DNA of 64,000 nt, taken from Paraspadella gotoi. Its lineage: Eukaryota > Animalia > Chaetognatha. Of this stretch, positions 2,625 to 46,488 are shown piece after piece. A program made the translations under genes and the position numbers. The notes beneath the pieces are model-generated. The model saw nothing but the letters and a program-made list of their open reading frames with translations, was not told the DNA's origin and ran no database searches. Position 1 is the first letter of the stretch, and the number at the start of each line of letters is the position of its first letter. Where the stretch lies: NCBI GenBank assembly GCA_051294375.1, contig CM119266.1, positions 4,168,931 through 4,232,930 of the forward strand. Reading direction: 5' to 3'.

Positions 2625-2679
<55 letters not shown>

Positions 2680-8277: not shown

Positions 8278-8335
<58 letters not shown>

Positions 8336-9821: not shown

Positions 9822-9887
<66 letters not shown>

Positions 9888-11844: not shown

Positions 11845-11888
<44 letters not shown>

Positions 11889-13816: not shown

Positions 13817-16304
13817 ATGAGCGAATCTGAGAAAGAAGAGCTGGATTCCGAGGAAGAGGATTTGGATTACGTCCCCGAAGGAGGAGAAGATGTCGACGAG
13901 GTGAGGCGGGTGGTGGTGGGGGGTGGAGGAAAAAATATATATAAGTAAATACATAAATAATAAAGGAGTAACAATAAAAGTCACTTCTGGGTCGATCTGT
14001 CCCTTTATCCCATTAACGTTTTGAATGTGCATATTTCGTAAAAAAACAGTAATCTATTTAATTATTTAGTAAATAGGTATTGGGTAATACACTTGGAGAC
14101 GTTTATTGTGTATGTTTAAGTATCAAGCAATCGATGCGACGCGACACCTTTGAAATATCTGTCCTTTGTTCAGCAAAGTCACTCCTTCCTTCTTCAGGCT
14201 TCGGGTGAATCGGAAAAATCTGAAGACGAAGTTGACGACATCGAAGGAGGCAAGAAATTCGTCGCTAAGCCTAAAGTGAGAATCTTATTAAATACAATTT
14301 AAATACTATAATTTGCTGAACTGAAGTTTTAATTTCTGTTAATTTACTTCCATTACAGAAAACTACGAGATCTTCGAAGAAAAACTTGAAGCGAGGTAAG
14401 TCGTGGGGGGAATATGAGTAGGAAATGTTTTGACTATTTCCTACATAATTTAAACTGGTACGTACAATGAATTATGAATTAATGTAACGAATTGATAGGA
14501 AGAACGAGAAGAGGCGTCGTTTACGGCGACGATTCTGAAGAGAGCGAATCGATCGAGGTTCCTTCGAAAAAATCTAAGGCCGAGGTAAGTCGCTTCCTTG
14601 GGGAAAAGTCAGGAGGGAAGATAGCTTATTTTCTTATTTCATTTTATATTGTGAAATGTTCTACTTTCAATCATTTTTCGCTTCCTTCCTTTACGCCCTC
14701 TTTTCCTCCCCTCTCTTTTCCTCCCTTCTCTTTCCTCCCCTCTTTAATCTACCCCCTCCTTTCCTACTCCCTTTCCCTTCTTCCCTCCCACCTACCCTTC
14801 CCCGATCCCCGATCCAGGACGAGTTAAAAGACAAGAAGCGCGTTGATGATTTGTGGGCTTCTTTTCTCTCGGACGTGAAAACGACGAAACCCAAGACATC
14901 AACGCAAAAAGTTCTCGTTCAAAAAGGTAGATTCTTTCTTGCTATTATTAATTTCTAACTTAAACCATGAAATAAATTTTGGACCAAAGATCATTTCACG
15001 CTATATGCCAATCACAGATAATTGCACACTATTTTCCAATCACAGATCATTGCATATCATTCGCCAATCACAGATAATTGCACGTCATTTGTCAATCACA
15101 TATAATTGCATATCATTCGCCAACCTCAAATCATTGCATGCAAATTAGAGATGAATATATATTACATTTCATTAACACATTTATAAATATTTTTTTCCCC
15201 TTAAACTGAAGGGACGAAGATCGAAGTTGAAGGCGGCGACTCATCGAGTTCTGATTTCATCTCCTCAGCGGCGTCAACCTCAGCCACCGCCGCCGCCGCC
15301 GACACATCCTCCTCCAAAACCCCCAACTCGTCGTCCACGACCTCACAAAAAATCACCATCACCAAAGTCTTCGATTTCGCTGGCGAAGAAATTAAAGGTC
15401 TCTCACTCTCTCTCTCTCTCTCTTGTGTCTTTATAACTAAATAATAATTATTGATAAAGTAAGGATATTGATTAATATTCACATTCGTTTGTCGATCTCG
15501 CAGTTACGAAGGAAGTGTCAATAGACTCTGAAGAGGCGAAGGAAGAACTCGCTCGAAGACGAACTCAAAATCCCGAGAAGGAGGCGGAGAAGTCGACGAG
15601 CGATTCCAACGAGAAAAGCGAAAGATCTTCGGCCGACGATTCCAACAGCGCCGTCTCCGCAGCTGGAGCTGCAGTCGCCGCGGAATCGAACGGCAGCAGC
15701 GGCGGCGTCGGCGAAGGAACGTCGACCAAGAAGGGAGACGAGGGAGGAGCGTCTCTCAACAAAAAACCTCCTCTCGCGACGGGCAACTCCACCGTGGATA
15801 AAATCCTCGCTCTCGGGAAGATCAAGTCTGGGACTTCGTCTCCGGGTAGATTATCTCTTTAGGGAGGGGGGGGGTTCAATTAAACCTCTTATTTTTTCAA
15901 AACAGAGAGAGAGAGAGTGGGGGGAGGGGAACCATGAACCATCAAAATGCTTTGACTACATGATCTAAAAATTAAACTGCTTCTCTACTCTTTACCCTTA
16001 ATTCACATTATTATCAGTTATTATTATTACAGTATTACTTATAATATTAATTGAATTAGGCCTACCACCGAAAGGCGGCCTCTCAAACATCATGAATAAA
16101 ATCGGAGGAACGAAGAAGAAGATGAGCGTCTTAGAAAAGACTTCGATCGATTGGAAGAAATTTAAAGAGAAGGAAGGGATCGTCGAGGAGCTCTCATCCT
16201 TCAACAAAGGAAAAGGAGGATATTTGGAGAAGCAAAAGTTTCTGCAACAAACTGATTTCAGACAATACGACCTTGAAAGGAATTTGCGGATGGGCAAACG
16301 GTGA
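13817..16304 (+). CDS. CFDP1: Craniofacial development protein 1 / BCNT (Swc5 homolog), ~8 exons
   Basis: Acidic N-terminus with DLDYVP; KKRVDDLWASFLSDV; KITITKVFDFAGEEIKVTKEV; BCNT-C domain KKKMSVLEKTSIDWKKFKEKEGIVEEL…NKGKGGYLEKQKFLQQTDFRQYDLERNLR. Exons approximately 13817-13900, 14198-14274, 14359-14395, 14499-14585, 14818-14927, 15212-15398, 15504-15845, 16060-16304. Confidence 0.93.
15008..15140. repeat. 28-bp minisatellite, ~5 copies (caatcacagataattgcatatcattcgc), in a CFDP1 intron
   Basis: Direct visual periodicity. Confidence 0.8.
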
Positions 16305-17549
16305 CGAAAAGTCAAACCCGAAGAAGAAAAAAATACATTCTGTGGATTAAATTGTCTTTTTTGTTTGTTTGTTAAAAAACAAGTTCAGAGATTAATATCA
16401 ACGCTGCTTTGACCGTCGTATTTTGTCTGATTTGACAAGTTTTAGATTATTAGTCAATAATTAGATAACGAATTGATTAAATCCAAAAGTAGCTTGTGTC
16501 TTTCAAACGTCGAGCAAACAAAAGTTCTTCGAGCCTGAAAAAGGCGGCATCTCTTAAAACCGATGTGACGTTTATTCACAAATTGTAGCCAAAGACTGTT
16601 TGAAATGTATTTTTTTGTTTTCTAAAAAAAACCTTTTAGTTTGACTTCGATTTGGGCTCAAACTCAGTTGTTTGCTAAATTTTTCATTCTCTTTATTTTT
16701 ATTTTTCCTCTTAATCTTTGCTTTGATAAATATATTTCGAGTAAAACTTATAAAATTTAAAATATACTCTCTTTTAAGGTTTGTATAATTTAATTGTTTC
16801 AATTTTATATGAGAACTTTGTCGGCTTTTCATGGATGATGGACTCTAAATAATTTTTTAATTTTTAAAGTTTGATCTGAAAATTAAATATAATTCGTTAT
16901 GCTTTTGATAACTTTGGCGCGGGCTCATTTTTCAAAAAAATTAATACGTATTTAATAATTATTTCTTAACCGAATTACTGCTCCCCTTTCGTGTTTATTT
17001 TATAAAAATATACATTTTTTAAAATTAATTTTGTATATGGAATTTTACTTAAGGTTTTTAGGGTTATAGTTTGAAATCTAGATAATTCGGCAGTGAGTTT
17101 GAACTTTGGCTAAATTTTTACAGTAGTGATCTCAACGGGGTCGGTTTTTATTCAGTTCGCGCCGCCGCCGCCCCGTCAGCAGCGGCGTCAGCAGCGACAG
17201 CGGCAACGACGGGGCAGACCCAGAAATCCTTGGCAGGAACGGCGGCAGCGGGAAAGCATGTGAGAAGTGTGGGGCAGAGAGAGAGAGAGAAGCGGTAGAA
17301 TTAAAAGCTCGGGGGCGCGAAAGCGACAAGAGACAATAGTATATGATATTCCAAGGCGTGAGTTAGGCACTTGCCTTAAAATCTTTTGTTTTAATATTGT
17401 TCTATTGTTTATCAATTGATTTCTTTGATTTAATTATATAATCCAATATTTTTTAGTTGAAAAAATATCGGTATGAATTCATTAATTACGGAATTGAAGA
17501 TTGGAATATTATGAACTAAATTGATCCTCAGTTGTGACAAAATTGAGAC

Positions 17550-20723: not shown

Positions 20724-23700
20724 ATGACGGAGACCAAAATGGCGTCGACGTTTGTCTCGTTGGACGAAGCGAAAAAGGAATTTCTTGACGTCGTCTCGAG
20801 GTTGAAGCCTTTGCACGTCTCCAAGTTCTTTCAGTGGTTGGAACTACGCATCAACTCTTACAAGCTCAACGGTTACGTTTTACGCGGTATAGTATAGTAT
20901 AACTGTTTTTTGTGAAATGTATTGTCGTCGTTTGGCTTTACCCTAGTTCTGCTGTATTTGTCTACTACTTTACTTGGTTTTTCTTTATTTTTTTCTTTTT
21001 TCTTTTTTCTTTTTTCTTTCTTTCTTTCTTTTTTTCTTTTTGTTCTTTTTTCTTTTTTTCCTTTTTTTATTTTTCTTTTTTTCTTTTTTTCTTTTTTTCT
21101 TTTCCTTTTATTTTCTTTTTTTCTTTTTTTCTTTTTTCTTTTTTTCTTTTTTCTTCTTTTCTTTTTCTTTTTTCTTTTTTTTCTTTCTTTTCTTTTTTTC
21201 TTTTTCTTTTTTTCTTTTTTTCTCTTTTCGTCTTTTTCTCTTTTTTCTCTTTTTTTCTTTTCTTTTCTTTTTTCTCTTTTCTTCTTTTTTCTTTTTTCTT
21301 TTTTTCTTTTTTTCTTTTTTTCTTTTTTTCTTTCTCTCTTATTCTCTTTTTCTCTTCTCTTCTTTCCTTTTCTCTTTCATTTTAAATTCTTCATTTCTTT
21401 CATTATTTCTTCATAGTTGCCATTGTTTCATTCTCCTTCAGTTGCATCCAGCTTCTCTCATTTTTATTGTATCATTTCCTCTTTTTCTCGACCTCTATTC
21501 CCCCTCCCAGCTCCCTCCCCCACTCTGCCTTTTCCCGCCCGATCGAGCGATTTTCACTTTTCCCGCCATTTTCTTTCTTTTCCCTCAGGTTTGCCTTCCT
21601 CGTCGCCCAGCTCAATCGACGTTCCATCTTCCGCGCCCCCTTCCCCGCCCCCCGCCGCCCCGCAAGCCGAAGCCGCCGCTCCCCTTTCCTCCGCCGCCGC
21701 CGCCGCCGCCGTTTCCGCCTCCTCGCCCGCCGCCGCTGCCATCGCCGCCAAATCTTCTTTCGATGCAAATTCTCGGCTCTCGTCGCCTTCGCCACCAACG
21801 CCGCTAAAGATTACAACTACGCCGCCGCCGCTAAAGACCAAAACGCCACCACCGCCGCTAAAGACGCCGTCAACGCCGCCGCCGCCGCCGCCGCCGCCGA
21901 AAACGACGATCGCGACGCCGACTCGCGACGTCGATTCCTTAGTCGTGGAAATTATGGAGCGTCAACAACAGAAGGCGGCGCAACTCCACATTCTGCAAAG
22001 TTCGCCGACGGTCGTCTCCGTTTCTGCAACAACCAAGAATCGGGTATTTATCTCTACATTTAACTTAATCATTATTTAAAACAATCATCTTCAAAAAATG
22101 TATAAAAGAGAAAAAAAATTAATTAAAAGGGCAAAATGAAAAAGAACTTTTCTACGATTTCTTAGAAATAACTTAAATCTTCGTTAAATCTTCGTTTTTC
22201 TTCAGAATGAATCTTGAAGATTATGTTTTCATATATCTTTCTGGACTTATTATAATTATATTTATCCGTAAAATAAAAATATTAAAAAAAAAACAAAAAA
22301 AAAAAAAAAAACAGGTTGATGTTTGATCATTGAATAATTTATTCATTTTTTTTATTTATCCGTATTAATTCATTTAGTCAATCATTCTTTTAATTCCATC
22401 CATCATTCCATTTGTTAATTCTCTCATTCATATATTTCTATTTTTTGGTAAACATAGTGAAAAGAGTCGAAACATGTCCGTTTCAAAAATAAAACTCGTT
22501 GTTTGTAAACAAAAATAAACTTTTTCTCTCTCAATTTTAATTTATTCATTTTTCCCCCTTTCTTTCCTTCTCTCATTCATTCCTTCATTCCTCCATCCCA
22601 TCCCTCCTTCCATCCCTCCATCTCCTCCAAGAATCTCCTCGATCTTCTCGATCACCGCAAACGGCGCCGATTCGACGAAGTCTCCCGTCGATCGATCTCC
22701 AGTCCCGATCTTCGATCTTCGTCGTCGTCGCCATCGTCGTCGTCGTTGGACGGCGTCGCTCCATCGCTCGATCCTCCGGCGACCCTCAACAACAACAACG
22801 ACAACAACAACGACGGTAAAAAGATGGATTTAGAGTCGACGCGAAGGTCGAGAGATCGAGACCGGATCGAGGCACACGCCGTGAACGCTGCTTCTGCCGC
22901 CACCGCAGCCGAAGTTCAGCAGCAGCAACCGCCGCCGCTTCAGCAGCAACCCCATCAGAAACCTTTGGTCGTGCCACACGGAGGGGTTTATCACAACATC
23001 GGGCACACGCAGCAACAGATCCAGCAGTTGCTGCGGCATCAACAGCAGATGCTCGGAAGTCAATCGTTGCTGCAGACGCAATTGCAATATTATCAGGTGA
23101 AGATAAAGATAAAGTGAAAATTTTTTATATCTTATCATTGATAAAGGAAGCCGAGGACTTTATTATTTACTTATAAAATATATATATATATTACACTAAA
23201 TTCAGAACTGCGAGACTTTCACAATTCATATCTTATTGGATATGATGAAATAATGACAAAGTTTTTCTAACAAATTATCACATAATCATCAATAAATCAT
23301 TATGAGTACTAAGCAATATAAATAAACGATTTAAAACCCTAAAATATATTATAAACATTGTAAAAGAACCTTCACTCGACATTTGGAATAATTTACTACA
23401 AGCTGCAAATGAGATTAACGAACATTGTCTATATTCCAGATGCATCAACTCAACCACCTCTACGACCCCGCGGTTCTCTCCACCCCCGCGGCTCTTTCCA
23501 CCCCCGTGCCACTTTCCACCCCCACCATCGTCCCCCCGCCCTTCCCTGCTTTCCTCTCTTCCTCCGTCCCAATCACCTCGTCGCCGCTTATCCGATCCTT
23601 GGCGCCGCCTTCGCTCCTTTTGGCGCCGCCCACGCCGCTGCTCGAGGCGGCGTCCCCGGCGCTAAAGACCAGGGCTTCTCCGGCTCCGCCTTCCATCAGT

Positions 23701-23739
23701 CCGGCCGTCACTTCGTCCTCTGTTACACAAGCGTGAGTA

Positions 23740-23772
<33 letters not shown>

Positions 23773-24928
23773 GATGATGATGATGATGATGATGACTTTA
23801 ATGCCTTGTTTATGAGCGATGAAAGGAATTAATTTGAAACCATTAGCCATCTTAACATACCAAAAAAGTATTAAGAAATATAATTCGGTTAATCATTTTC
23901 TAAAAAAAAAAATTATGAGCCTCTGTATATTACTGTTTACCCAATAATTCAACAATTTTATAACAATAAATATGACAAAACATTAAAAAAATGTTTCTCG
24001 GTTTTATATCTGGTCTTATGGTGAACACAAATCCACCAACCGTTCATCAGCGGCCGTTGGTGAAGAATGCAAGTCATTCACTTCCCAACCCAAAGGTCCG
24101 GTGTTCTCGCCCGGTGGTCGCCTAGCATTTAAGAGGGACCTCGCGACCCGAAACTGCACCGGAATTGGTGGTTTTGAGTAATGGAGCTATCATGAAAAAA
24201 TATAAAAACATTTTACATCTCACTCTTGATTCGCAACTGCTCCTTCAGCGCACTTTGCGCATGCGCTAACTTGTAATATTACTCTTAAAATTTATTTCTC
24301 TTTCCTCCAGTCACGACGCCCCCATCTTCTCCGCCTCTAATAACAACAACAACAACACAACTCCGCTCAATTCCGCTCAACAAAATTTCGCCAAAATGCC
24401 GCAGCTGAAAAAGGAAGTGGACGTCGGAAGCGAAGATTCGCCGGGAGGGAGCCGGTCCGGCGAATCCCCTTCACCGGCACCGGGAAGACGATCCGGCGAT
24501 TGCGGGTCTCCAGCGCCGAGAATCTCCGGACTGGCGATGACGAACGGACACGCGTCGCCGGCGGATTTGGATGCTGCAAAAGACGCTGCTCCGTCGCTGC
24601 TTGCGCGGATGTCGTCGTCACCGAAGCAGACGACGTCGGTGGAACGACGCAACTGCTCGTCCCCTTTCGTCGAAAGGTAATTTTAATTTTGCTTTAATTT
24701 AATTTTTAAATAAATTTGGTACAACTAATATTAAATTATCTGTTTACTTAATAGGTTAAATCCTGTTACATGACCCTGAAAGCCTCTCTCTCGGTCTAGT
24801 TGAATAACTTCGTTACTTTTTAATATACTACTTCAATGAAAACTTACCCATGTCCTGAGGTAGTTCATAAACAGCTATACTGTCTTTATTAGGAATATTA
24901 ATATGATCTGACTGTTCTTTTTTCAAAG

Positions 24929-24961
<33 letters not shown>

Positions 24962-26072
24962 TCCTTACATATTGATCTTCTAAAAGTGATGGGAGGCCCT
25001 TAATCTACCATTGTCGGTTTAAAATCTGGAGACTATAGACCCCATTAATCTAGTTAATTATTATTCGTCTATTATCAAATTAAATTATAGAGTATTACTT
25101 TTTTTTCTCATCAGGTGTGAATCGACGTCGGTTGCTGTAAAAATCGAAAATTTTCAAAACGACTCGATTTACGAGACAAACGCTTCAAAGGTGAGTCTCA
25201 CCAAATCAACGCTGCTTTGAATAATACAAGTTTAATGAAAATACAAGTTATTACGTTTAATTTAATTTAGATTTGTTTGATTTTTTTCTGCTTTAAATGA
25301 ACAGAAAACTGACTGTTATCGTCTCGAATGTTTTTAAATGTTATTTTTTCACGCTTAAACCGAATAATGCATTTCAATCATTCAAACTCATTTGCATATT
25401 CAAATGTGATTTTGCTGAATCAACTTTCAGCCTTAAAGTCTCAGTAAGCAAGATGTCGTCGCGATTAATTCTCCTTTGGATCATTCCTCTTTTTTTGCTT
25501 CGCACATTCAAAAGAAAGTAATGACTGCTGAATTGGTTTTTAGATTAGTTTATTTTAGTTTATAAATATGGTACACACACAAAACAAATAACTAGTCTTA
25601 AACTTCTCACTCTTGAATTTTTATCCATTTTGAAATAAATATTTTTTTTACATACATAAATTCTCATTTCACTGAAAATTAGAATCCAATTTTCTCTAAA
25701 CTATATTTCACTTCAAATTAAGTGCGCAGCAGATAGTAACTCTTTTCCTAAATGAATGGATAATTCTAATGTATCGGACGTACCAATTTTCATTAATTTC
25801 TAAATCGTTAGATGGCGCGTGCCAAAACTCAAGATGGCTGCCGCGAAAATTACTCTCGTATAAACAGAGCGCCTACTACGAATTATCGTCGGGAATCAGA
25901 AGCCTTAAGTGAAAACCAACCGAGCGAAAAAACATTCCGGGTTTCGGCTCAAGAATGCAATGTCGCCGTCTCTCTCTCCCTCTCTCTCACTCTCTCTCTC
26001 TCTGGAATGTTTTACTCCTAAGCGAAGCGCGGAACTTTCTCTCTTCCTCTCTTTTTTTTTTCTTTCTTTTTC

Positions 26073-26114
<42 letters not shown>

Positions 26115-28769
26115 CTTCCCTCGGCTCCCATTGAAAGTAGGATTCTGCCACGACGGCGGAAAGACCATTTCCTTATCGCTTCTCTTTTTTTAGCTGAATC
26201 TTTTTTTCCCTCTCACCCATTTGAATTCTGCGATCCGGCTGAATTCTTCCGCCTTCCAAAACAATCCGTACATGTTACAATAATGTAATTTGCGCGCCAA
26301 AGTTTAGTTCTATCCATTTGATGTGTTTGTCTTACGCCAGTTTAACGAAAATTTATATGGATAAAATTCTCAAGGTGGTATTTATATTTACTCACTGAGA
26401 CTTAAGACTTGCTTAATTATTTCATCGGAAAAATCAACTGTAGTACTAGTAGAAATGAGAATAAATTGTAATCAATTTTAAATTTGGAACGTCTGGTTTT
26501 TGTTTTCATTTTTCCCGTTTCGATTCATCGAACTTGGAACTTTGAGTTTTTTCTCTCTCCGTTCGCTGCTGACGAAGCGATGTGTCTCTCTCTCTCTCTC
26601 TCTCTCGCGCGAATGTTCGAGTGAGAGCGAGTCAGCCGCGTTGGTTTTCCAATGTCCATCGCTCAACTCAATAACAGATACTTGTAGTTGTACACTTTTC
26701 ATTGACTTTCAGCTTTTCAGGCCACTCGATGTCTATCGCTCCCAACTCAAAAGTTTGTTTATGAGTTCCTCACCAGATGCGAGTTTTCTGTTTCCAAATG
26801 ACAGGATCGTCGCGGTGGGTTTTCGTCTCGCAGCGGCAGCCGCTGCGGCGTGGAATACCTAGAACTTGCCCTTTGAACGGAGCGTTGATTACATACGGGG
26901 CAGCTGCGGCTGCCTCAACCTTTCCTCTCGGCTATCGGCCTTACTCAAGTCTCCAGAATTTTGATTGCAGGAGTTATTTTTTTAAGTTGGCGAAATTGAG
27001 CCCCTCTAAAAGTTAAATTAGCTTTAATATTATTCTTTATAGTCAAGTCTCGACTTAATAAAAACAGATAATAACTTGTTTTACCTTCAGGAATAGTTTT
27101 TCTACAAAAAGACGATTACGAGTTTATTTACCCCTGCGTTTCTCAACTACCTTTTTTCTACTGAAGCGAAGTGGGAAGGTATTTCAATTCGTCATGAAAC
27201 AAGCTGAATTATAAAAAGATACCGAAAGTTTAATTGTTATTATTTATACTCAACTCGCCATGCCTTTTCAACCTACCATCATCTTATGTTACAACTTAGT
27301 AGATGTAGTTACGCTACTAAGGCTTCTGCTCGTCCTAGTTTATGTAAGTAGAGCATAATTTAAATATAATTAAGACCACCAAGAAATTACTATCGACTAC
27401 TGATAAAAATATGTGCCTTTAAAATGTTTTAACCTCATTGTTTTTGCTTTAGTTTTAGTAAAATTCTTTTTAAATTTTAAGAATTAAATCATTTTTTAAA
27501 ACTTACAATTTTATACTAAAATAAGTGTTGTCGTGGTAGTTGTTATTGTTGTAGTCACTAAAGCATTAGTATTAATAATACAAATAAAATTAATATTTGC
27601 ATTATTTTTAATTATTCGCTATTCCTCACATCACTTGGCATTAATTCCAGACTATTGCTTCCGCCAACGCTTCAAATGTAATCGCCAATGAGGACAAGGA
27701 TAAAACTCAGTCGGCCACCGATTCGCCGAATGTTTCGCAAGACTTGACGAAATCTCCAACTTCGCCACCTCAAGAAACCGCAAACTCGAATGAGAGAAAA
27801 GATTCCATTCACGGAGAAACTGTAAAAAAAACCGAGGAGACGAAAAAACCAAAGAAACTTCTTCCCCCAACTCGTCCGTCGATCCCTCCGCCGCCGCGAC
27901 CCGCCAAAGCGCCGCCGCCGAGACCGCCGCGACGTCTAGACAGCCAAGAGCTCCTCGATTTGCCCGTCGATTCCGATCCCCGGGGTTTGATAGACGAACC
28001 TATAGATTCGGATGACAAGGTGTCGGACCCCGAATTCTCGGACCCCGAAGTCTTGGACCCGGATGTGGAATCGGACGTGATCGTCGTGAGAAGACCAAAG
28101 AATGACAAACCGACGCCGAATGATAAAAGAGACAGCGGGATCGAAGGCCTCGATTGGGAACCCTCCACGCCACTATCGCCATCTTTCGACGCCGTTGAAG
28201 AGTTTCCAGAGTCTGAAAACCAAAAGGCCCCTCTGTCGCCAACTCTCGATGCCGCTAGAGAGTTTCTGGATACCGCAACATCCGAGATCCGAGTAGTGCC
28301 TCAGTCGCCGAACCTCGAAGCCGGTAGAGACTTTTCAGAGGCTGAAACCACAATGCCGACGTCAGAAAACCGACTAGAATTTAATAGAGAAGTGATGATA
28401 TCGAATCCTAATCTGAGTCGATCTTTGCACGATCTCTCCAGCATCGATAAATCCGAATTCGAGACGGTTAACGAAATAACGAAAAGAGCCAAAGTGGAGC
28501 CTCTGTCCTCGGGGAGATTTCCATTGTCCATTTCCGATTCGGACGATGACGAATCTGATAGAGATGATAACGAAGACGACGATTCCAGCTCAAACGCATC
28601 GTCCGAAAATGAGTTCGAATTTGATAATAATAAAGAATCGGTTTCCGTATCTGCGAATTACTTCTCCCCTTCGGTGTCAAGCCCAAGATACGGACGATCG
28701 GAAATTGGCTCCAGTTTGGCTTCTATTCCAGAAGTCGATGAAGAAAACTTTATTGACGATTCTACCACC

Positions 28770-28800
<31 letters not shown>

Positions 28801-31800
28801 TTTCCGTGGAAGAAGACAGTTTGGAGGGAAGCCGATTTGTGTTAAATAGCCCTGACTTGGGATCAAACGCGCGATTGAGTAAGAGTGAAGAAGTTTTAAA
28901 CGTAGCCAATACACCCTTAGTGCCTTTTCAGTTTGTTGATGTGAAGGATCGTGTATCTAAAACAACAATTATCACGGAAGAGACAGTTGTAGAAGAAACA
29001 TTTAAAACGTCCACTATTTATAATGACCCAGGTTTTAACAAATCTAGCGCCGACCGAAAAGTAGACTCTAATGAAACGACAAAAGAAAGAAAGTATATAA
29101 ATATAAAGAATTCCACCCACAAAAAATTGCCAGAAAACATTGATCTGTCAATAACTCATCCCAAAATAGATGGCACACAAAAAGAACGGTATTTTGAAGG
29201 AACGCTATTGCAAGAAAGAAAAAATAAAACTCACTGTAAAGTTTATTGTCTTGTAAGAGGTACAAAGATGTTAATGTATAAGTTTTCCGCACCACCTATT
29301 CAAACTAAAAATATAGAGCAGCGTAGTGATTTAACTATTGATTTATCTGAAGCAGAATGTGAAATATTTCCCTCTTCTTGTGGTTATCCTGGACTTTTTC
29401 GTCTAAAATTAAATATCGGAGATGAATATTTATTGCAAGCCCGAGATGACATTGAAATGCGTTTCTGGGTTCATAAAATAGGAACAGCAGCAATTATTAA
29501 AAGCATTCGGTCTACAACTAAAGCCATGATGGAGTCTTTACATTATTACATTGAGGATACTATTAAGCATGATTTAGAAAACCGTAATATGTATAAAGCC
29601 TGTATTTCTGAAAAAACAGAAAGTTCAGATAGTCTTTCAGTAAACTCTCTTGAAGATGTTTCCGTCTCGGGGACTAATATTACTCCTGAAAAAGGGGTAA
29701 ATGTTAAAAACCTGATCTCATCCATGGACAAAATATTAAGTAAAGAAAGTGACGAACAATCTTCAACCAAAACTGAACTTGTAGCAGGTGGAAGGGCAGT
29801 TAAGGATAAGATAAAAATGTTTGACAAACTTCTTCCACCTGTCGAAGATAAGTCTTTTTCTTCTGAAAAATTAAATGCAAAGAAGTTTGCTTCAGAATCA
29901 AAAAGTCCTACTGAACCGAGTGTTTTGTCAGAAGACCCAAAAAAACTGAAAGTTGTTATGAAAACTCCCGATGGTAAATCAAAAGTTATGCTAATTACCA
30001 TGAAGAAATCCCCAGAAAATGCTAATGCTAGTAACTTAAATACACATTCCATTGAAACAGAGAGTCCTTCTACTATGCCAATTAATATTTCAGAAGAAAA
30101 TAGTTTAGTAGAAGAAAAAGATAATTCACTAAAAGAAACTGTGAATAAAAAAACTTCTACTGCGACTAGAAAACGAATAATAGTAAAGAAAAAGTCTAAG
30201 AAATATACCAAAAGTAAATCATTGAATGACAACCTCAATGGAATTAAAGCTCCAGAAAGTTTCAAAGAGCCATTTGATAATCAAAGTGATGGGTCTTTTT
30301 CGGTCAGTAAAGAATCAATGGACGATATATCAAGTGAAAATGAAGATAAAAATTTTTCAGAAATTAATCTCAATAATTCTGATGAATCTCTTTCGGTTAA
30401 CAAGGATTCCTTTCATGATAATTCATTTAATGATAAAAATACAAATGAACATTTTAATGATGTGAGTATTAATCAAACGGATAAATCTCTGTCGCTAAGC
30501 AATGATTCATTTTTTAATATTTCAAGTGAGGAAACTCATGCAATTGTCTCTAATATGACGGCTAAAAACACAGAAAATGATAAGGCAGCTGAAAAAACCA
30601 TGACCGATCCCGCAAATTTAATGAAACTAACAGATGACTCTAATTTGGATATTGTAAAAACTGGTAAATATAAGGATAACACTTTTTCAGAAGATACTTC
30701 CCAAATAGTAGATAAAGAGCCTTTTCCAAAAAAGTCTGTTTCATCCACCATCAATTCAACAGAATCAAATGCTGACATTAACTCAAGCCCAAAACATACT
30801 GAATCTGATATATCAATGTCAGAAATGAAAAATTCTAAATCGGTTGAGTTGTTATCTGTTGTTGGTTCAGTTGTTAGGCAAGAATTAGGATATAATAATC
30901 CATCGGATATAGTAGGAGATCTTAATTTTGAACATTCTAAGAAAGAAACAAATGACTCTTCTGATTCTTTAAATGATAAAGGAGCAATTGATTCTGTTAA
31001 AAAGCAACCAAAAAAGGTCGTAGTTATTACTATTAGTAAAAAACCCAAACCTGTTACATCTGAGATTCAGAAGAGCCAAGACTCTTTGAACGTGGCTTAT
31101 GAAGAGGTTGTTCGTGAAGCAAATAAAAGTTTAAAAGAACAAAATCGAAAATGTCAAATTGTGAATGGAATTGATGAACATCAGCATTGTGAAAGTGAAC
31201 ATAAATTTTTAGTTGAAGAAAACTCTGAAGGTAATAGTTTTTCTTTAAATGAAACTAGTGGGTGGCATGACAGTTTAACCCAAAATGATATAACATTATT
31301 TAATAATACTCAGTTTACAACTGATGAATCTTGTAATTTGGAGAATGATACAATTGGTCATCTCGCTGACGTATCGAGTTCTGGTGATGCTTCTTATGAT
31401 GAATCCACCCTTCCAACTCAGTTGTCAGTAGATACTAGCTATACTGAAATAGAACCAACCCTTTCAGAGTTAACCGTTGTGACAGATTTAACAGAGGATT
31501 TGACAGTACATGCCAGTCCAGCAAGTCAACAAATGGATTGGGAAATGGAACCCTCTATGATAAATAACAATAAAAAGGCATCAGATCCGTTATTAACTCC
31601 TTCCAAGGATGAAAAACCCAATTCTCCCAGTAACAAAGCTTTAAGAACTGTATTATACAAATCAAAATCTAAAAATAATGATGTTCACTTTGAAGGATTA
31701 ATCAACCGTAAGCATGAAAAAATTAGTCGGAATAGAAAGTCGCCAAATCGTAGTTGGGAAAGACTTTATGCTGTTTTACATGGCAAGCAGTTAAGATTTT

Positions 31801-34800
31801 ATAAGGATAAAAAAATTGCTCGTACTGACAAAAGGTCTTTGTATAATGATGAGTCTCCTATTGATCTCACAGATGGAAAGTGTGAAAAAGCCACTGATTA
31901 TTCAAAACGAAGGAATGTTCTCCGCCTTTGTTTGCCGGGAGGAGCTGAGTATTTGCTACATTGTGCTGATGAAACTAATATGAAACAATGGCAAAATAAA
32001 ATTATCATTGGTGCTTATCCCACAGCAGTTCTTTTCGATGGTTTTGTTGACACGCAGAGTACTACTGAAAATAACCTTATTGAAAATTTGACTGCTCACT
32101 CGCCTGACTCTTCATTGAATGATATAGAAGAAACTTTAAATCCTTATGATTATAAAAGAAAAGCAGAGGAATCCAGCCATCTCACAGAAAATGCGATTTC
32201 AGAAACTGTTTCAGGAAACAAAGAAATTTCTGATAGTGAAGCCTCTGATAATTGTGTTTTATCGACAAATTCATTTGTATCAAAAAATTCTCTCAGTCTA
32301 TCTACAGAGTCAGAATCAACATTACTACCTTCTTCTCCAAGACAAGATCATGATGACCTTGGAAGTGATCATGCAAATAATGAAATTGATGTGACATCCG
32401 AAAAATTAGAAAAGGAGGTTCTCCAAAAGTCACACCTCAAAGATGCTTCACGCGTATGCGAATTACTTGAGGAAATGAAAAATGACTCCAAGTTTGATCA
32501 AAGAGAAAAATTAGATGAATCAATTGGTTCAGAAATTGAAAGTGAAACTTCGGAACCTTCTGTAAAGAGAAGGTCTAAGGAGAGTAAAGACAGAATGAGC
32601 TTGGTCATTGGAGAAATGAGAAAGTCTCAAATTTTTGAAAGAATGAGAAAAGAATCACTTGGTACAGAAGATGATCAAAATTATGTTCCTTCCTTAGTAG
32701 AAAAGCCAGTCAGACCAATCGTACCTATTAGTGATCTTGCAAAAAACTTAGAAACAAAGCTTTTCAACAGAACAAATTTTCTTGCGCCTGAGGATGATGA
32801 TGAAACTTTTGTGAAAAGAAGAATGTTTACAGAAGAAACTAACTCTGAACTTGAAGTTTTATTAGACAGAAAGCCTACAGTTCCAGAACCTCATGTTTCC
32901 GATCTTGAACAAATTTTGCCCCAGCCATATACCAGCTCTCCTTTTGATGAGAGAAAATTAAATATTTCTTCAGAAATTGATGAAACTGCAAGTTTTGCTG
33001 GAACCAATGACGAATCTATGTATTCAGTAGGTTCAGTTTCTATCTCTGAGGCTGATCTGATTCATGATCCCTATGAAGGGTACTTGAACAGAAAGGTGAA
33101 GTATAAAAGGGCTGACAGAATGTCCGAAGATAGATCCTGGAGAAAAATATTCTGTGTTTTGAAAAATGGTCGTATGCGTATTTATAAAGATAAAAAGAAT
33201 TTCGAAAATAAGCCTAAATCTTATTTGCATCGTGAGAGGCCTATAAATCTTTTAGGAGCAAACTGTCACAGTTATTACATGCCCCACGAAAAAGAACCTA
33301 AAAACGTATTCCGTTTAGAACTTCTAAATGGTGCTGAATATTTATTTGATGCAAATGATGCCGCTGATAGAGATAATTGGGTGCTCAAGCTTAATCAAGC
33401 TATTCAAACCCAGTTGATATCTTTAAAGTATCCAGACTTAAAAGAAGATGAAATCAGTGTTCCTGATGATGCGATTGAGACTATTCCGAATCGACCACCA
33501 CCCGATTGGTTGGATGAATATTTTGAAGGATCTCTAATTAGAAAACAAAAATGGTTATCAGCTTCAAAAATGGCTGACAATAGATCTTGGGAACGCTTGT
33601 TTTGTGTGCTCCAAGGAAATAAAATTGGTTTTTATAAAGATAAAAAAACATTTGAAAAAAATTCCGAAAACACCTATAACAAAGAAACAAAACTCGATCT
33701 AGCTGGTGCTGAGGCAAGGTCCTTACCAAATTTTAGGAAAAAATACTCCTTCACATTACGTTGGCCCGACGGAAGGTTATACATATTTCAATCTAGTGGT
33801 GATGATGAAATGAATTTTTGGATTTACAAACTCAATAATCAGAGTCAAATATTTGATATGGAGCCAGCACCGTCGGTATCTTCCAAGAGAACAAAGAGTG
33901 CAAATTATTTAGACAGTTTGGATGATATTCTTAGTGAAAGAGTTGATGCGCCATCTGTTATGCGAATTGATACTCTGGAAGTTTTATCAACTGTATCGTC
34001 ATCAAAGCGATCTGTAAGAAGTCATAATTCATAATTTTTTTTTATTGATTTAAAAACTTTTACTCTCTTTCGTCTCGTTGTTTTCAATTGTTTTTTATAT
34101 TGGATGTATTTAATTTCTTTTGGTGATAAATTGTAAACAATTGATTGCATGAAATAAAGATATTTTATTTTTTGCCCTTTCTAATCTGACGCTATTTGAT
34201 TTATACTGTCGAGTGAGTTACATTCAAATAAAATTAATGTACCGGAAAGAGTGAAGGAAAAAGAAGGAAAAAAGTAATTAATTGAGAGAAAAGAAAACTA
34301 AAGATTAAGGAAGCAAGAGGGACAAGAGTTAAAAAGGTAAGGAAAAGGAATAAAGAGCTTTATTATAAAGCTAAGGCAAATCAGCTCCAGTCCCAATGAA
34401 GTATTCTTTAACTTCAACTTCAAAACCAGATAAAAATTTGACATTTGATTTACGATTATTGCAACAAATTTTGATTACAAAATTTATTTTAAAGAAAACG
34501 CGTAAATCAGTGATCCAAGGAGAATACGAATTACATCGAAAGGCGTTTCATGCTTATTGTTTGATATATATATATATATATATTGTATTACTGTAATCAA
34601 TTTTGATTTTTATTTATTTATTTTAAGAGCGAATTGGAAAATGGCGCTAGTCGTAAGCGAACGAGGCACAAAGGTCGGCATCGAAAGGAAGATCGCAGAC
34701 GTCGAGAAAAACGACATAAAAATCGTCTAAGGTTAATAAATCTCAATTTTAAAACTTGGTACATACTAATTAAACCAGTTACAGACTAAGACCAAGTAAA

Positions 34801-37800
34801 AGCATTATATTTGACATTTTTTAAGTGTCAAAAATGCCCTATTTGTGTTTTATTTAATATCTGGGCGAACAAAGTGTCGTATCAGTAAATGTACGTATTG
34901 ATTATTAAATTTCGTTTGATTTTTCTTTTCATTATATTCGACACTTCAGAAAAAAAATTTTTTTGGAAAATATTATGAATTTTTGTTTTAAATTTTACAA
35001 ATATTTAGTAAATGATTTAATTAATCTCAAAATAACTCTTTCTTTCCCTTTTGTTTCTCTTTCCCGCTCAATTTTTTTCGCTCTCCTTTTCTCTTCAATA
35101 GAAAATCGTCGTCTTCCCAATCTTCTTCCACTTCGGACGACGCTTCTCCGGACGTGGGCGTGTCTCCCGTCAAGCGAAAATTCAAGATGGCGCCGGCCGA
35201 TGTCTCTCGTGACGTCACTGCGCATGCGGAGGACGATGCACGGGAAAATAACGTGGACTCTTTGAAACTGGTTTCGTCCTGGGAGGGCGCGGTTCTCCCT
35301 TTGGAAAATCAAGGGAAAATTATGAATGAAGACGATGCGGATGAATTTGACGAAGGTGATTGGATTAGATTAGATTAGATCAGATTAGAAAAATGAGATT
35401 AGATTATCAAGTTGTTTCAGTTTTAGATATTTTTATTTCTTATTCATCATTTCTTACCTCTTCGCCTCTTACCATGTTTCTCTCTTCTCTTTTCTTCCCT
35501 CTTCTCTCTTTCATTTCATTTACAATTCCTACAATACATAATTACGTATAATACAATACGTACAATACAATTAATCCCTACTTCCTCTTTCTTTTTTTTC
35601 CTTGCTCTTTCCTTATTATCTTACTTGAATATAATTGTTTTCTATTCCCCGAGTTTTCATCCGTTGTTTTTCACTGAGCGATATTAATTTTATTTTTACA
35701 TATTACCTACAATATTTAAGCCTCAGTTAAATAAAAACCAATTCTTTTAATTACGAAGGCGAGTTGGTGATCACTGAAGATCTTCCTCCGTCCGAAGATC
35801 GATTTTCGGAAGCAGACGACGACGATGACGACGACGATGAAGTCGTTGACGTCGATTCGGTGGACGACGTCGATCCTCGCGACCGGTGAGTCAAATCAAA
35901 TCAATCGATCGATCGAACAATCACGTCAAACCAATCAACCGAATCCACTTTACAATCGGTAAATTCAATTAATCATTCGATCAAATCTGTTGATCAAATT
36001 CTATTCAAATGTATTCGTCAAATAACTACAGAACTCAAGTGAATTAATAATAATGAATGAAACGATCAAATCATCCATCAATCCATCAAGCAAACAAAAC
36101 TGATTTAACAGTTACGTTAATAAATCTATTCAAATCTATAAATCAAGAGCAATTAATTAATCAATACCCGTCCCCTTTCCTTTCAGTTCGCTCATTTTAA
36201 AATTGAACGCGGCGGTGGACGTGGGCGACGCGGGCGCCCTCAGTCGGACTCTCACCACCGTCGACGATCGGAAGTGCATCGTCGAATATTCGTTGGGTCA
36301 CGGAGAGGAAGCGGCTGAGGAGAAATTCGGGGTTCATCGCAAGATGATCGCCAGGTTGAAGGGAGTTGGTTTCGGTTTAGGGGAATCGATATCGGGTCCT
36401 AAGTCATGACTCATGAGGCAAAATAGCTTGGTGGTTATTGAGTGGATAAATTTATTAGTATTAGTGAATGTAATTTCATTACAATGAGAAGAATGAGCTA
36501 AATGAGTTATATTTTTTCCATCCCTCCAATCGATTGTCATTAATCCCCATCAATTGTCCCATGAATTCTTCTCTCGCTTTCCCAATCCATAATCTTCGAT
36601 CTCCAATCACCACTCTTTAATCCCCACCCTTCAATCTCCTATCCCCACTCTTCAATCTCCAATCCCTAATCTTCAATCTCCACTCTTCAATCTCCAATCC
36701 CTAATCTTCTATCTCCAATCCCTAATCTTCGATCTCCAATCCCCACTCTTCAATCTCCAATCCCCACTCTTCAATCTCCAATCCTAATCTTCTATTTCCA
36801 ATCCCTAATCTTCCATATTCAATCCCCACTCTTCAATCTCCAATCCCCAACCTTCAATCTCCAATCCCCACTTGTCAATCTCCAATCCCCACTTGTCATT
36901 CTCCAATCCCCACTCTTCAATCTCCAATCCCTAATTTTCACTCCCTAAATCCCTAAATCCTCACCAGATGGAAGAAAGAAGTTGAAGTGATGAACGCGGT
37001 CAACCCATCGCTCCGAACGCGCTACTACAAAGAACTCACTCGTCGCCGGAAACGACTGGACGCGTCCGACGACGACGCCGACGCAGAAGAGGATCGAGTC
37101 ATGGCGGCGTTGCAGCGGCACCACCGACTCGACCGTCGTCTCGAAGGATCCTTGGAGGCCAATCATCCTCATCATCTCGGCCCGGACGAAGGACTCGAGG
37201 TTTCGCTCGGCGGTGTTGACGGATTTCTCGGCGATTTTGATCTCGACTCGGGATCGGCTAAGATGTACACTCCGGCGCAGAAGAAGGCCATCGTCGAGTA
37301 CGCCGTCCAGTACGGGGAGAGGGCCGCCGCTAAGAAGTTCGGAGTCCACAGGAAGAATATCTACCGGTCGGTTGAAAATATGTTATTTCTCGTTCTTTAC
37401 TAAATCATAAAGGTTAAATAATTTAAATAAATCCTACGTTCACAGTCAGATATTTTGTAAGATTATTTCCAGGTTAATGGCTTGCACCGAGCTAGCTTGG
37501 CCGTCTTGTACTATTCAGTTAAAGCCATTATTATTTTTTTTAAATATTATGTTATTTTAGTTGGAAGCGTAACCACAATTTGATGGCGAAGACGTCGATC
37601 AAGCGTCCGTCAGGCCCGCGCCTTTCCAACGCATCCGAGGTCGACGCCGGACCACATCAACTAGTGGGCGTGGCCACTGTTGACGCCGTCTCCGTCGCCG
37701 GCGGTTGGGTCTTTCCCTCGCCGCTCTCCACCGATTCTTACCCTCCAAGTCAAGACGCGCTCACGATCGAGGTTCTTAAATCTCATCCCGTCGATGACGC

Positions 37801-38599
37801 GCCATCTCGCGGTCATCGTCTCAATTTCTACGCGAATCAGGAATCAGTAGATAATTCTCCGCCGGGCGTCGTCGTCGCCAAAGCGGAGGAGGAATCGAGT
37901 CGCGATCCGATCGATCGACGTCGATCCGAATCGACAAAAGAGCATCGCGTAGGAGGAGGAGGAGGAGGAGGAAATTCGAAACGCTCTTCTTCCTCTTCCT
38001 CCTTCGTCGTTTCCTCTCCGGCGGACACTACCCGCCTCCTCCAGCTCGACTTCAAGAGCGCGCCGCTGCAAACTGCGTCGCTCTGCTCGTCGACGCTCTT
38101 CACGACGCCGGCGTTGATCGCGCGGCCGGTGATGGCGCCGGTGCCGGCCGCCGTCGCCACTACCTTCATCGCGCCGCCAATCGTGGTGCCATCTATGATG
38201 GCATCGTCGGTTTTGGTTTCCTCGTCGTCGATGGCTTTTAAGAAAGAACCCGAGCCGGAAGCGAATCGCGACTCGTCGGGCGGCGACGAGGCAATTTGGG
38301 TGTGCTCGGAGGCGGCGGCGGAAGCGGAGACGCCCTTGTCGACCGAGGCGAAGGAAACCCCTCTTTCGCCTCGGAAGGCATCAATCTCCGACGAAGACTT
38401 TGACACAAAGCAGCCCCCGGATGAGGAGAGCGCGGCGACAAAAACAACGACATCCGGGTCTCCGGATAAGGAGAATAACAAACGATCTAAAGGAGACGCC
38501 GCGTCGCCGGAACATCAACAGCTGCAGCAGACACGCGGCGCGGAGAACGAAACGAGGTCTCGGAAAAGAAAAAGGAAAGGATCCGGAAGAAATCACTAA
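20724..38599 (+). CDS. Putative nuclear DNA-binding protein (~1297 aa) with two Brinker-type (BrkDBD / pogo-like) helix-turn-helix repeats; 12 coding exons
   Basis: Exons 20724-20871, 21589-22043, 22632-23096, 23440-23732, 24311-24676, 25115-25190, 34628-34731, 35102-35355, 35759-35885, 36187-36354, 36968-37366, 37561-38599 join into one open frame. HTH repeats DDRKCIVEYSLGHGEEAAEEKFGVHRKMIARWKK and YTPAQKKAIVEYAVQYGERAAAKKFGVHRKNIYRWKR; several NLS-like basic tracts; poly-Q/P/S regions. The 25190 to 34628 junction is inferred. Confidence 0.7.
20975..21385. repeat. ~400-bp almost pure T/C polypyrimidine tract (intron 1 of the HTH gene)
   Basis: Low-complexity tttc/ttttc runs that generate the F/S/L-rich spurious ORFs. 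Confidence 0.9.
22456..22535 (+). mobile_element. 5'-truncated copy of the Penelope-type hammerhead element (3' half only)
   Basis: agtgaaaagagtcGAAAcatGTCcgtttcaaaaataaaactcgttgtt… matches 3647-3690 and 4127-4200; the CTGANGA half is missing. Confidence 0.6.
24048..24205 (+). mobile_element. SINE-like insertion (possible tRNA-derived head, A-rich tail)
   Basis: GC-rich island in an AT-rich intron with loosely A-box/B-box-like motifs (…ttggtgaagaa…ggtccggtgttctcgccc), ending in gaaaaaatataaaaa. Confidence 0.25.
27651..34034 (+). CDS. 6.4-kb single terminal exon (2127 codons) encoding four beta-spectrin-type PH domains separated by long acidic/Ser-rich linkers
   Basis: Acceptor aattccag at 27650 (phase 0), open to TAA 34034, AATAAA at 34153. 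PH domains at ~29190-29490, 31683-32010, 33069-33410 and 33519-33845, e.g. FEGLINRKHE…RSWERLYAVLHGKQLRFYKDKK…ATDYSKRRNVLRL…GAEYLLHC.DE..M..W, the beta-spectrin PH signature. The ORF-track start at 27744 is TTG, so the true start lies in upstream exon(s). Confidence 0.88.
36585..36960. repeat. ~21-bp minisatellite (ttcaatctccaatccccactc / …ccctaatc), intronic
   Basis: More than 15 visible degenerate copies between the two exons that make up the first HTH repeat. Confidence 0.85.
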
Positions 38600-39683: not shown

Positions 39684-43107
<3,424 letters not shown>

Positions 43108-45415: not shown

Positions 45416-46488
45416 ATGGATCACGAACTCTCCCAGGAACAGATCGATCAATACAAGGAGGCCTTTTCTCTTTTCGACGAAGACGCCGATGGACTCATCA
45501 CCGGCGCCGAGTTGGGTGATGTCATTCGAGCCGTCGGTCAAACCGTGACTGAGGCTGAGATCGATGAAATGATTCTGGGTAAGTTGGGCCTTAAGGGCGA
45601 GTTAAAAGTGAGTTGAGATTTATTGACAATTTTTAGGTTTTGGTGATTGGGCAGTTACTTTGACGACTGTGAAATTGGTACAATCAATGAAAAGAGTATT
45701 AATTCACTCGATAAATAAATGCCTCCTGAGTTTGGACAATGAACATGTTAAGGCAGATTAATGCCTCTATCATCTATCTTTTTTACAATTAAAGCAAGAA
45801 TATGTCTGCTTTTAACCAAGACTCTCTCATACACTAGTTAATTAATTAATTAGTTTATTAATTTTATTGTGGAAAAAAGGATATTTTAATAATGATCATT
45901 TTTTCTCAATTTCTTTCAAAGACGTGGAGGCGCAAACCGGTCAGCAGATGGTGGACTTCGCGTCTTTCTTGACGATGATCGCGAGTCGGACGGACGCACG
46001 CGACACCAAAGCGGAAAACCAAGAGATAATTGAAGCCTTTAAGATATACGATCGACAAAAGAAGGGATATGTTACGGCGCGAGAAATGAGGTTTGATCCT
46101 ATAAGCTGTATTTATCACTTATAATTTGTTTAAAAAACGATATATAAACTAAATTGCTACAATATGTAAATGAGATTAAAGAACTCTATATCATTTGAGT
46201 TATTCTGCTCCATATCTCGTATACAAATACTAATCCAGATATCGTAAAATTCATCAAATGCGAGGAATATACCAAATTACCATACATAAATCCTTTCTAA
46301 TTCTAAATCAAACAAAATTATACAATTTGTTTTGCATTAACTTTTGAATTTTGTTAAGGCATTTGTTGACGACGGTTGGTGAAGCCCTAACCGATGACGA
46401 AGTCGACGAAATGTTTCAAGACGCGGGCGTCAAAAGTGAACAATTTAAAATTAACTACATCAAATTCGTCGAGATCATGACTAAATGA
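45416..46488 (+). CDS. Divergent calmodulin-like / myosin light chain-like EF-hand protein (153 aa), 3 exons
   Basis: Exons 45416-45578, 45922-46090, 46359-46488. [49 protein letters not shown]…[11 protein letters not shown]…[45 protein letters not shown]…[12 protein letters not shown]. An alternative in-frame ATG lies at 45371. Confidence 0.9.

What the first reader, a model, noticed from the sequence alone, without database searches (positions are those of the whole stretch)
20724..38599. One locus, two incompatible C-termini: Brinker-type HTH transcription factor versus a 4xPH-domain protein inside its intron
Seen: six upstream exons give a 601-aa open frame ending at a phase-0 donor (25190). 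Two downstream phase-0 acceptors continue this frame. One is 27651, a 6.4-kb terminal exon with four PH domains, a stop and its own AATAAA. The other is 34628, a basic NLS-like exon that runs through five more exons to two HTH repeats; its only ATG (34641) opens a short frame that stops before the donor, so this half needs upstream exons. Inference: either alternative last-exon choice switches one N-terminus between a nuclear DNA-binding protein (~1297 aa) and a membrane/phosphoinositide-binding protein (~2728 aa), comparable to Drosophila lola or mod(mdg4) variable tails, or the PH ORF is a same-strand nested gene with its own promoter at ~25.8-27.2 kb. Either arrangement is unusual, and I do not recognise the combination.
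Basis: partly seen in the sequence, partly recalled or inferred. Interest (0 to 1): 0.85.

Follow-up and report, generated by a model that had tools for sequence, protein, structure and literature searches.

The report
Four-PH gene nested in transcription-factor intron
A large gene for a protein with four spectrin-type, likely lipid-binding PH domains sits on the same strand inside one intron of a predicted helix-turn-helix transcription factor gene, and transcript contigs splice the two separately, so this is likely an ordinary nested gene rather than one gene with two tails, although the nested protein's build is unusual.

Summary
The anatomy is real; the headline isoform switch is not supported. 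One public run holds spliced contigs of this locus. One contig carries host exon 5, a 77-nt piece the size of exon 6, and the 34628 exon in unbroken order, so 25190 splices to 34628. That exon supplies an in-frame ATG (27260) and a hydrophobic 28-residue leader, giving a 2155-aa protein. No contig shows 25190-27651 or 27178-27651, and bin depths leave no room for one, though contigs drop rare forms and this is one sample. So the PH gene is a same-strand nested gene in intron 6 (9437 nt) of a 12-exon, 1297-aa HTH gene that is not shown to be Brinker. Such nesting is well known. Less ordinary is the nested protein: four beta-spectrin-type PH domains, no spectrin repeats, acidic low-complexity linkers, and orthologous fragments at 59-64% identity in two unnamed assemblies. 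It likely works as a PI(4,5)P2-binding cortical scaffold, possibly a membrane-anchored tether. The nested gene's start site and poly(A) site remain unmapped.

The parts
20724..20871 (+). Host coding exon 1 (ATG 20724); a predicted helical 49-aa N-terminal segment with no family found
21589..22043 (+). Host exon 2, Pro/Ala/Thr-rich
22632..23096 (+). Host exon 3, ends in a Gln-rich stretch
   Evidence: Model; record 1 has 928 nt upstream of exon 5, more than exons 3+4 (758 nt), length only
23440..23732 (+). Host exon 4, Pro-rich
   Evidence: Model; length argument as for exon 3
24311..24676 (+). Host exon 5
   Evidence: Contig record 1 and GT..AG joint to exon 6
25115..25190 (+). Host exon 6, phase-0 donor at 25190
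   Evidence: Joint 24674>25113 with 77-nt side; 77-nt gap in record 1 between exon 5 and the 34628 exon
25191..34627 (+). Host intron 6, 9437 nt, holds the nested gene
   Evidence: Skipped in record 1
25801..27000 (+). Candidate promoter or 5' leader region of the nested gene (two CpG-richer patches, a YY1-like motif at 25831; motif name recalled); not shown
   Evidence: no contig links it to the nested exon
27174..27343 (+). Nested gene, first coding exon as far as covered; upstream ATG 27194 (6 codons), in-frame ATG 27260, donor 27343. A good acceptor at 27091 suggests the exon may begin there
   Evidence: Record 3, joint 27343>27651 GT..AG
27260..27343 (+). 28-codon hydrophobic leader, predicted signal peptide or membrane anchor
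   Evidence: Best 19-residue hydropathy 2.27; reached by 1 of 85 non-coding ATG stretches and 55 of 5000 shuffles
27344..27650 (+). Nested gene intron, 307 nt, phase 0
27651..34034 (+). Nested gene large coding exon, 2127 codons plus stop; first Met only at codon 235
   Evidence: covered by records 3, 4, 5
29178..29525 (+). PH1, degenerate: PH fold predicted, lacks the R/K-x-W lipid motif
31428..31600 (+). Conserved non-PH motif before PH2, shared with ortholog fragment P0085
31677..32018 (+). PH2, beta-spectrin type, RSW motif kept
   Evidence: PDB 1btn E 3e-19
33072..33416 (+). PH3, beta-spectrin type, RSW motif kept
33513..33860 (+). PH4, beta-spectrin type, RSW motif kept; 68% identical to P0031
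34153..34158 (+). AATAAA, candidate poly(A) signal of the nested gene (others at 34227, 34349); use not shown
   Evidence: record 5 ends at 34042
34628..34731 (+). Host exon 7, basic NLS-like stretch
   Evidence: Record 1 and joint 34729>35100
35102..35355 (+). Host exon 8
   Evidence: Record 1
35759..35885 (+). Host exon 9, acidic
   Evidence: Joint 35884>36186 at the depth of record 1
36187..36354 (+). Host exon 10, most of HTH repeat 1
   Evidence: no Pfam hit alone; 20 of 32 residues equal to repeat 2, counted by hand
36968..37366 (+). Host exon 11, end of HTH repeat 1 and most of HTH repeat 2
37561..38599 (+). Host exon 12 to stop

Best explanation
Transcript contigs splice the host from 25190 to 34628 and, separately, a 27343 donor to 27651, so the PH gene is likely an independent same-strand gene nested in intron 6 of a predicted HTH transcription factor gene, and its product likely binds membrane phosphoinositides through three intact spectrin-type PH domains. 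Shown: both splice paths, the in-frame ATG at 27260, four PH domains, conservation in relatives. Inferred: the nested gene has its own promoter in 25.8-27.2 kb and ends near 34175; host transcription must read through the nested splice and poly(A) signals and defines the whole 9.4-kb intron; the gene arose from the PH-coding end of a beta-spectrin gene, probably by retroposition or intron loss (6.4 kb of coding DNA without an intron), followed by internal duplication. The 2155-aa protein is predicted to be an acidic, mostly disordered scaffold with Pro-rich SH3-type motifs near the N-terminus, held at PI(4,5)P2-rich membranes by avidity of PH2-4, and perhaps anchored by its hydrophobic leader. 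The host is predicted to be a nuclear DNA-binding protein with two pogo/CENP-B/Brinker-like HTH repeats made by exon duplication (same intron position and phase in both).
For:: record 1 (2826 nt, depth 19.8) holds 24311-24674 at record places 1898-1535, 34627-34729 at 1457-1355 and 35100-35349 at 1354-1105; the 77 places between equal the exon-6 piece. Record 3 (depth 10.6) joins 27343 to 27651, GT..AG. Neither contig breaks at 25190 or 27651. Depth accounting: 14 units left in the bin holding 27651, -5 in the bin holding 34628, 58 in the bin holding 25190 (fits a short spurious piece at 25381, table 5c). The big exon has 234 open codons before its first Met, which ATG 27260 supplies. Coding GC3 0.29 for the PH exon against 0.67 and 0.62 for the two host halves. 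PH2-4 keep the R/K-x-W motif that PMC3344901 (passages) ties to the non-canonical lipid site of beta-spectrin, and each domain is net basic (+4 to +9). Ortholog fragments P0031 (64% over 216 columns) and P0085 (59% over 188) extend beyond the PH domains and pair with PH4 and PH2 at 100/99 support.
Against: One run, one study, contigs only, and the tool calls it RNA by guess (the spliced joints and empty introns argue it is RNA). The 25190>34628 joint is deduced from record coordinates; table 5 does not list it. Record 3 simply begins at 27174, so no start site is shown; a 10/13-pyrimidine acceptor at 27091 hints at a further upstream exon of unknown origin. The poly(A) site is not covered. The GC3 contrast is partly positional (0.54 in the first 600 nt of the PH exon) and may reflect exon length. 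The leader has an internal Arg and no clear charge bias, so anchor versus signal peptide versus neither is open. Monophyly of PH2-4 is neither recovered nor rejected (p-AU 0.216). No lipid binding was tested.
Confidence: 0.8

Rival explanations
1. Nested gene plus a minor or tissue-restricted chimeric isoform: in some cells the host donor 25190 splices to 27651 and makes a 2728-aa protein with the host N-terminus and four PH domains in place of the NLS and HTH repeats.
For: The splice would be in frame. Contigs drop rare variants. Mis-splicing between same-strand pairs is the explanation offered in PMC3814207 (passages); Su(var)3-9/eIF-2gamma share 80 N-terminal residues (PMC4528330, section 8).
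Against: No such joint among the 8 listed; contigs as shallow as 2-3 were kept, yet depth at 27651 is fully explained. The PH exon has its own start exon.
Confidence: 0.1
2. Shared promoter: the PH gene has no promoter of its own; a non-coding host leader exon upstream of 20676 is spliced to the acceptor at 27091, as in CPNE1/RBM12.
For: The 5' end is unresolved; 27091 is a good acceptor; the host ATG exon itself follows an AG at about 20675. FlyBase lists 130 genes sharing a promoter and 5' non-coding exons (PMC4528330, section 8); PMC2568002 (abstract).
Against: No contig or loose end shown at 27091-27173 (34 loose ends were not shown). It needs six coding exons skipped. CpG-richer, promoter-like patches lie just upstream in the intron. 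Exon 6 spliced to 27091 would stop after one codon.
Confidence: 0.08
3. Two or three tandem genes: the HTH exons have their own start near 34.2-34.6 kb and are not joined to exons 1-6.
For: None found beyond the missing row in table 5.
Against: One contig holds exons from both sides of the PH gene; nothing covers 34525-34626; the only ATG of the exon is out of frame.
Confidence: 0.02

Closest known systems
Same-strand intronic nested genes (Drosophila, mammals)
   Same: A protein-coding gene wholly inside one long intron of a host on the same strand, with few introns (one shown). PMC3814207 (passages): 71.27% of fly nested genes are opposite-strand, so about 29% same-strand; multi-exon same-strand ones have a median of one intron. 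PMC11694760 (abstract, introduction, passages): over a tenth of mouse and human genes contain a nested gene, orientations broadly similar. PMC4528330 (section 8): FlyBase does not flag this arrangement.
   Different: Size: 6.47 kb of coding sequence against a fly same-strand median of 817.5 nt; it fills about three quarters of the host intron and is expressed in the same sample as the host.
lola / mod(mdg4) variable 3' exons; Su(var)3-9 / eIF-2gamma shared N-terminus
   Same: A possible in-frame acceptor for a second C-terminus lies downstream of shared exons.
   Different: The joining splice is not seen; the inner unit has its own ATG exon; no BTB domain; the two tails are unrelated rather than paralogous zinc fingers (PMC4528330, passages).
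Beta-spectrin C-terminal PH domain (PF15410; PDB 1btn, 1dro, 1wjm)
   Same: Closest solved and database relatives (PH2 34-44% to named conventional beta-spectrins); R/K-x-W motif kept in PH2-4.
   Different: Four copies, no spectrin repeats or calponin-homology domains, hydrophobic N-terminus, intron-free coding of all four domains.
Brinker and pogo/CENP-B/Pipsqueak-type HTH proteins
   Same: Repeat 2 passes the BrkDBD cut-off; Atlas leads are CENP-B_N and HTH_psq clusters (scores 0.85-0.86 and 0.77, leads only). Some insect Brk proteins have two or three DNA-binding domains (bioRxiv 10.1101/2025.02.07.637038, passages).
   Different: 12 coding exons, HTH repeats in the C-terminal half, no PMDLS- or FKPY-like motif, no Brinker structure hit at E 10, no transposase domain found.
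ER-plasma-membrane tethers with long disordered linkers (Ist2, junctophilin, extended synaptotagmins; recalled, no call)
   Same: Predicted anchor at one end, PI(4,5)P2-binding modules far away, long flexible linker.
   Different: No sequence relationship; the anchor here is only predicted.

Membership tests
Same-strand nested gene | Lies wholly inside one host intron that is spliced out | tested here: met
   Record 1 skips 25191-34627
Same-strand nested gene | Own start codon, no coding sequence shared with the host | tested here: met
   ATG 27260 in exon 27174-27343 spliced to 27651
Same-strand nested gene | Own promoter and transcription start | tested here: inconclusive
   Contig starts at 27174 with nothing joined upstream; contigs cannot show a start
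Same-strand nested gene | Own poly(A) site inside the intron | tested here: inconclusive
   AATAAA at 34153; main cover ends at 34042, a depth-2 trace follows
Alternative last-exon locus (lola/mod(mdg4), Su(var)3-9/eIF-2gamma) | Common 5' coding exons spliced to each alternative tail | tested here: not met
   25190>34628 present, 25190>27651 absent in the one run; rare forms not excluded
Beta-spectrin | Calponin-homology domains and spectrin repeats | tested here: not met
   Only PH families among 3 Pfam hits
Spectrin-type PH domain | PF15410 match and R/K-x-W motif of the non-canonical site | tested here: met
   4 stretches match; motif in 3 of 4 domains
Spectrin-type PH domain | Binds PI(4,5)P2 / Ins(1,4,5)P3 | not testable with these tools
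   Needs a binding assay
Brinker | DNA-binding domain closely similar to fly Brk (over 80% similarity among insect Brk, per the preprint) | tested here: inconclusive
   Repeat 2 only 0.7 bit above the Pfam cut-off (its end lies in the next exon and was not in the query); repeat 1 no hit; no PDB Brinker hit; no direct alignment to Brk made
Brinker | CtBP (PMDLSLG) or Groucho (FKPY) motif (absent in basal insects) | tested here: not met
   0 matches to either pattern in the 1297-aa model
Brinker | Mostly intron-less gene of hexapods | tested here: not met
   12 coding exons; the organism's group was not established
Signal-anchored membrane protein | Uncleaved N-terminal membrane segment with cytosolic C-terminus | tested here: inconclusive
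   Hydrophobicity above chance; no topology predictor available

The most novel reading that the evidence does not exclude
The nested gene encodes a new kind of membrane tether built from a stolen spectrin part: the PH module of beta-spectrin was cut loose from its rod, copied four times along a 2100-residue acidic flexible chain and given an N-terminal membrane anchor, so that it ties an inner membrane to PI(4,5)P2 at the cell surface, a lineage-specific counterpart of Ist2 or junctophilin.
Probability: 0.2. Interest if true: 0.6.

Novelty: new member of a known kind. Interest (0 to 1): 0.3.

Why it matters
As an arrangement it is ordinary, though a demanding case: a co-expressed, intron-bearing 7-kb gene presents an in-frame acceptor and poly(A) signals to its host, which still splices cleanly past them in the one sample seen, a natural test of the mis-splicing idea for same-strand pairs. 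Gene predictors would likely fuse or split these genes. The protein matters more: no other protein seen here had several spectrin-type PH domains spread along a chain without spectrin repeats, and if it is anchored it would be an independently evolved membrane tether.

Tried and rejected
No whole genome is held, so paralogs and the parent beta-spectrin gene could not be sought. No holder on record as RNA was listed; X1 is RNA by guess. X2 and X3 (other organisms) gave only short repeat matches. Only 24250-36550 was laid, so junctions of exons 1-4 and 10-12 rest on the model and on contig length. Word searches for host relatives found none: 0 of 850 candidates for exon 11, 0 of 8 for exon 1; Atlas for exon 1 gave only hits under 0.9; so the host halves could not be shown joined in another species. 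Both metagenome scans for the nested gene failed (0 of 306 and 0 of 67 pattern matches confirmed), so synteny is untested. A full-length ortholog was not found: 29 hits among 7577 candidates were spectrin-domain proteins (28) or a RhoGAP (1). The 151-row tree was a quick, unfinished search with few columns; the 31-row tree left out PH1 and most unnamed rows and does not resolve a donor among conventional beta-spectrins. An FFAT-like motif was looked for with a recalled pattern; only a weak look-alike at residue 178 of the exon turned up, not counted. Literature searches for multi-PH spectrin derivatives (1 and 4 papers listed, listings only) showed none; that is a thin search of an open-access library. 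No earlier notes on this genome or sequence.
Full report
Setting. The window is animal-like DNA with AT-rich introns and GC-richer short exons. Genes on the + strand run: a CUE-domain gene resembling ASCC2 (name recalled; CUE hit), an SH2 adaptor and a BCNT/CFDP1 gene, the locus in question, an inositol-phosphatase gene and an EF-hand gene. No whole genome is held and the organism's group was not established.

Observation. The six upstream exons give 601 codons without a stop and end at a phase-0 donor. The frame from 27651 is open for 2127 codons and has four PH stretches. The six downstream exons complete a 1297-aa protein. The ATG at 34641 stops after 29 residues.

What transcripts show. 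One run, X1, holds 0.72 of the sampled words of 27651-37600; it is RNA only by the tool's guess. Laid on 24250-36550, it gives four GT..AG joints among 8 listed (the other four are repeat-type or depth-2 skips) and leaves intron stretches empty (26716-27126 at depth 0), which is what RNA gives. Record 1 (2826 nt, depth 19.8) carries exon 5, then the 34628 exon, then the 35102 exon. Between exon 5 and the 34628 exon lie 77 record places, the exact size of the exon-6 piece named in the joint 24674>25113. So the host splices 25190 to 34628 over 9437 nt. This joint is deduced, not listed in the table of joints, and 96 pieces were not shown. Records 4 and 5 cover most of the rest of the large exon to 34042. 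Summing the listed records explains the depth in the bins that hold 27651 (14 units left of 3173) and 34628 (-5 of 2034); a chimeric contig of depth 2 with 30 letters a side would add about 60 (and inference). Contigs of depth 2-3 were kept elsewhere in the intron. Limits: one sample, contigs prune rare branches, and contigs cannot show starts or ends.

The nested gene. The exon ending at 27343 has an in-frame ATG at 27260, preceded by an in-frame stop and a six-codon upstream frame. The large exon has no Met until codon 235, so an upstream start is needed, and this exon supplies it: 28 + 2127 = 2155 aa. The leader is hydrophobic: best 19-residue mean 2.27, reached by 1 of 85 ATG-started stop-free stretches of non-coding DNA in the first 43 kb of the window and by 55 of 5000 shuffles. 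Whether it is an anchor or a cleaved signal is open; a secreted PH protein would make little sense, so an anchor is the better guess (inference). Outside the PH domains the chain is rich in S, E, D, K, N, net charge of the exon -103, with Pro-rich motifs near residues 81-94. The true 5' end is unknown; an acceptor at 27091 and CpG-richer patches at 25801-26000 and 26801-27000 suggest a further leader exon. Host exon 6 spliced to 27091 would stop after one codon.

The PH domains. Best solved relatives are beta-spectrin PH domains (E 3e-19 to 4e-16), ahead of ARHGAP ones. [quoted passage not shown] PH1 has lost the loop and motif but folds as a PH domain (pLDDT 85.9, with an alignment of PH domains that favours this; fold hits). 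The four are 27-35% identical to each other. In a 31-row tree PH2-4 fall on the spectrin side against RhoGAP-type domains and outside the beta-heavy group, without a resolved donor; one clade is neither found nor rejected. Of 168 stored proteins with a spectrin-type PH hit, only this one and one named beta-spectrin (P0002, two hits) had two or more. Two unnamed fragments are orthologs: P0031 (64% over 216 columns, through the C-terminal tail) and P0085 (59% over 188, including a non-PH motif). The gene is therefore conserved and very likely functional. Their contigs are 1019 and 643 nt, too short for synteny.

The host. Repeat 2 matches BrkDBD just above the cut-off; the exon with repeat 1 has no hit but shares 20 of 32 residues with repeat 2, and both are cut by a phase-2 intron just before the Trp, pointing to exon duplication. 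There is no CtBP or Groucho motif and no Brinker structure hit. The preprint 10.1101/2025.02.07.637038 (passages) describes brk as a mostly intron-less hexapod gene. Atlas leads point to CENP-B_N and Psq-type HTH (under 0.9). It works like a sequence-specific HTH factor (basic NLS-like exon, Gln/Pro-rich regions; inference) but is not shown to be Brinker.

Comparison and verdict. Same-strand nesting covers about 29% of fly nested genes, typically with no or one intron (PMC3814207, passages), is common in mammals (PMC11694760, abstract, introduction, passages) and is not flagged by FlyBase (PMC4528330, section 8). Interference with host processing is documented (PMC3192792, abstract). Confidence in nesting as the main arrangement is about 0.9 counting the minor-chimera variant; in PI(4,5)P2 binding about 0.6; in a membrane anchor about 0.35. 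Interest 0.3, carried by the protein's architecture and the size of the nested unit. No supplements were read.

Noticed in passing
window 25483-25893, 26278-26514, 34114-34524: Low-depth (about 2-3) contig cover in host intron 6 outside the nested exons; pre-mRNA, DNA traces or minor 5'/3' extensions of the nested gene. The 26278-26514 contig has a 3-nt insertion against the window.
   Followed up: partly
window 1903-6864: CUE-domain gene resembling ASCC2 (name recalled).
   Followed up: partly
window 7211-12685: SH2-domain adaptor gene with Tyr motifs, resembling the SHB/SHD/SHF group (SH2 hit; family recalled).
   Followed up: partly
window 13817-16305: BCNT/CFDP1 gene.
   Followed up: partly
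window 39684-42120: Inositol monophosphatase-family gene, INPP1-like (name recalled).
   Followed up: partly
window 42880-43107: Small GC-rich open exon after a separate leader near 42.5-42.6 kb; no Pfam hit.
   Followed up: partly
window 45416-46490: Three-exon calmodulin-like or myosin-light-chain-like EF-hand gene.
   Followed up: partly
window 47235-47876: Small three-exon gene with a signal-peptide-like start and no Pfam hit for its first two exons; a possible secreted peptide.
   Followed up: partly
window 36582-36931: 21-bp minisatellite, about 17 copies, filling the intron that splits HTH repeat 1.
   Followed up: no
window 54860-56660: Degenerate purine-rich array with a unit of roughly 60-65 bp, interrupted by a non-repetitive island at about 55770-56320 that may be an assembly artefact or insertion.
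   Followed up: no
window 3640-3690, 4050-4200, 22460-22510: A short dispersed element, palindromic at 4050-4200, likely a MITE-like repeat (seen by eye).
   Followed up: no
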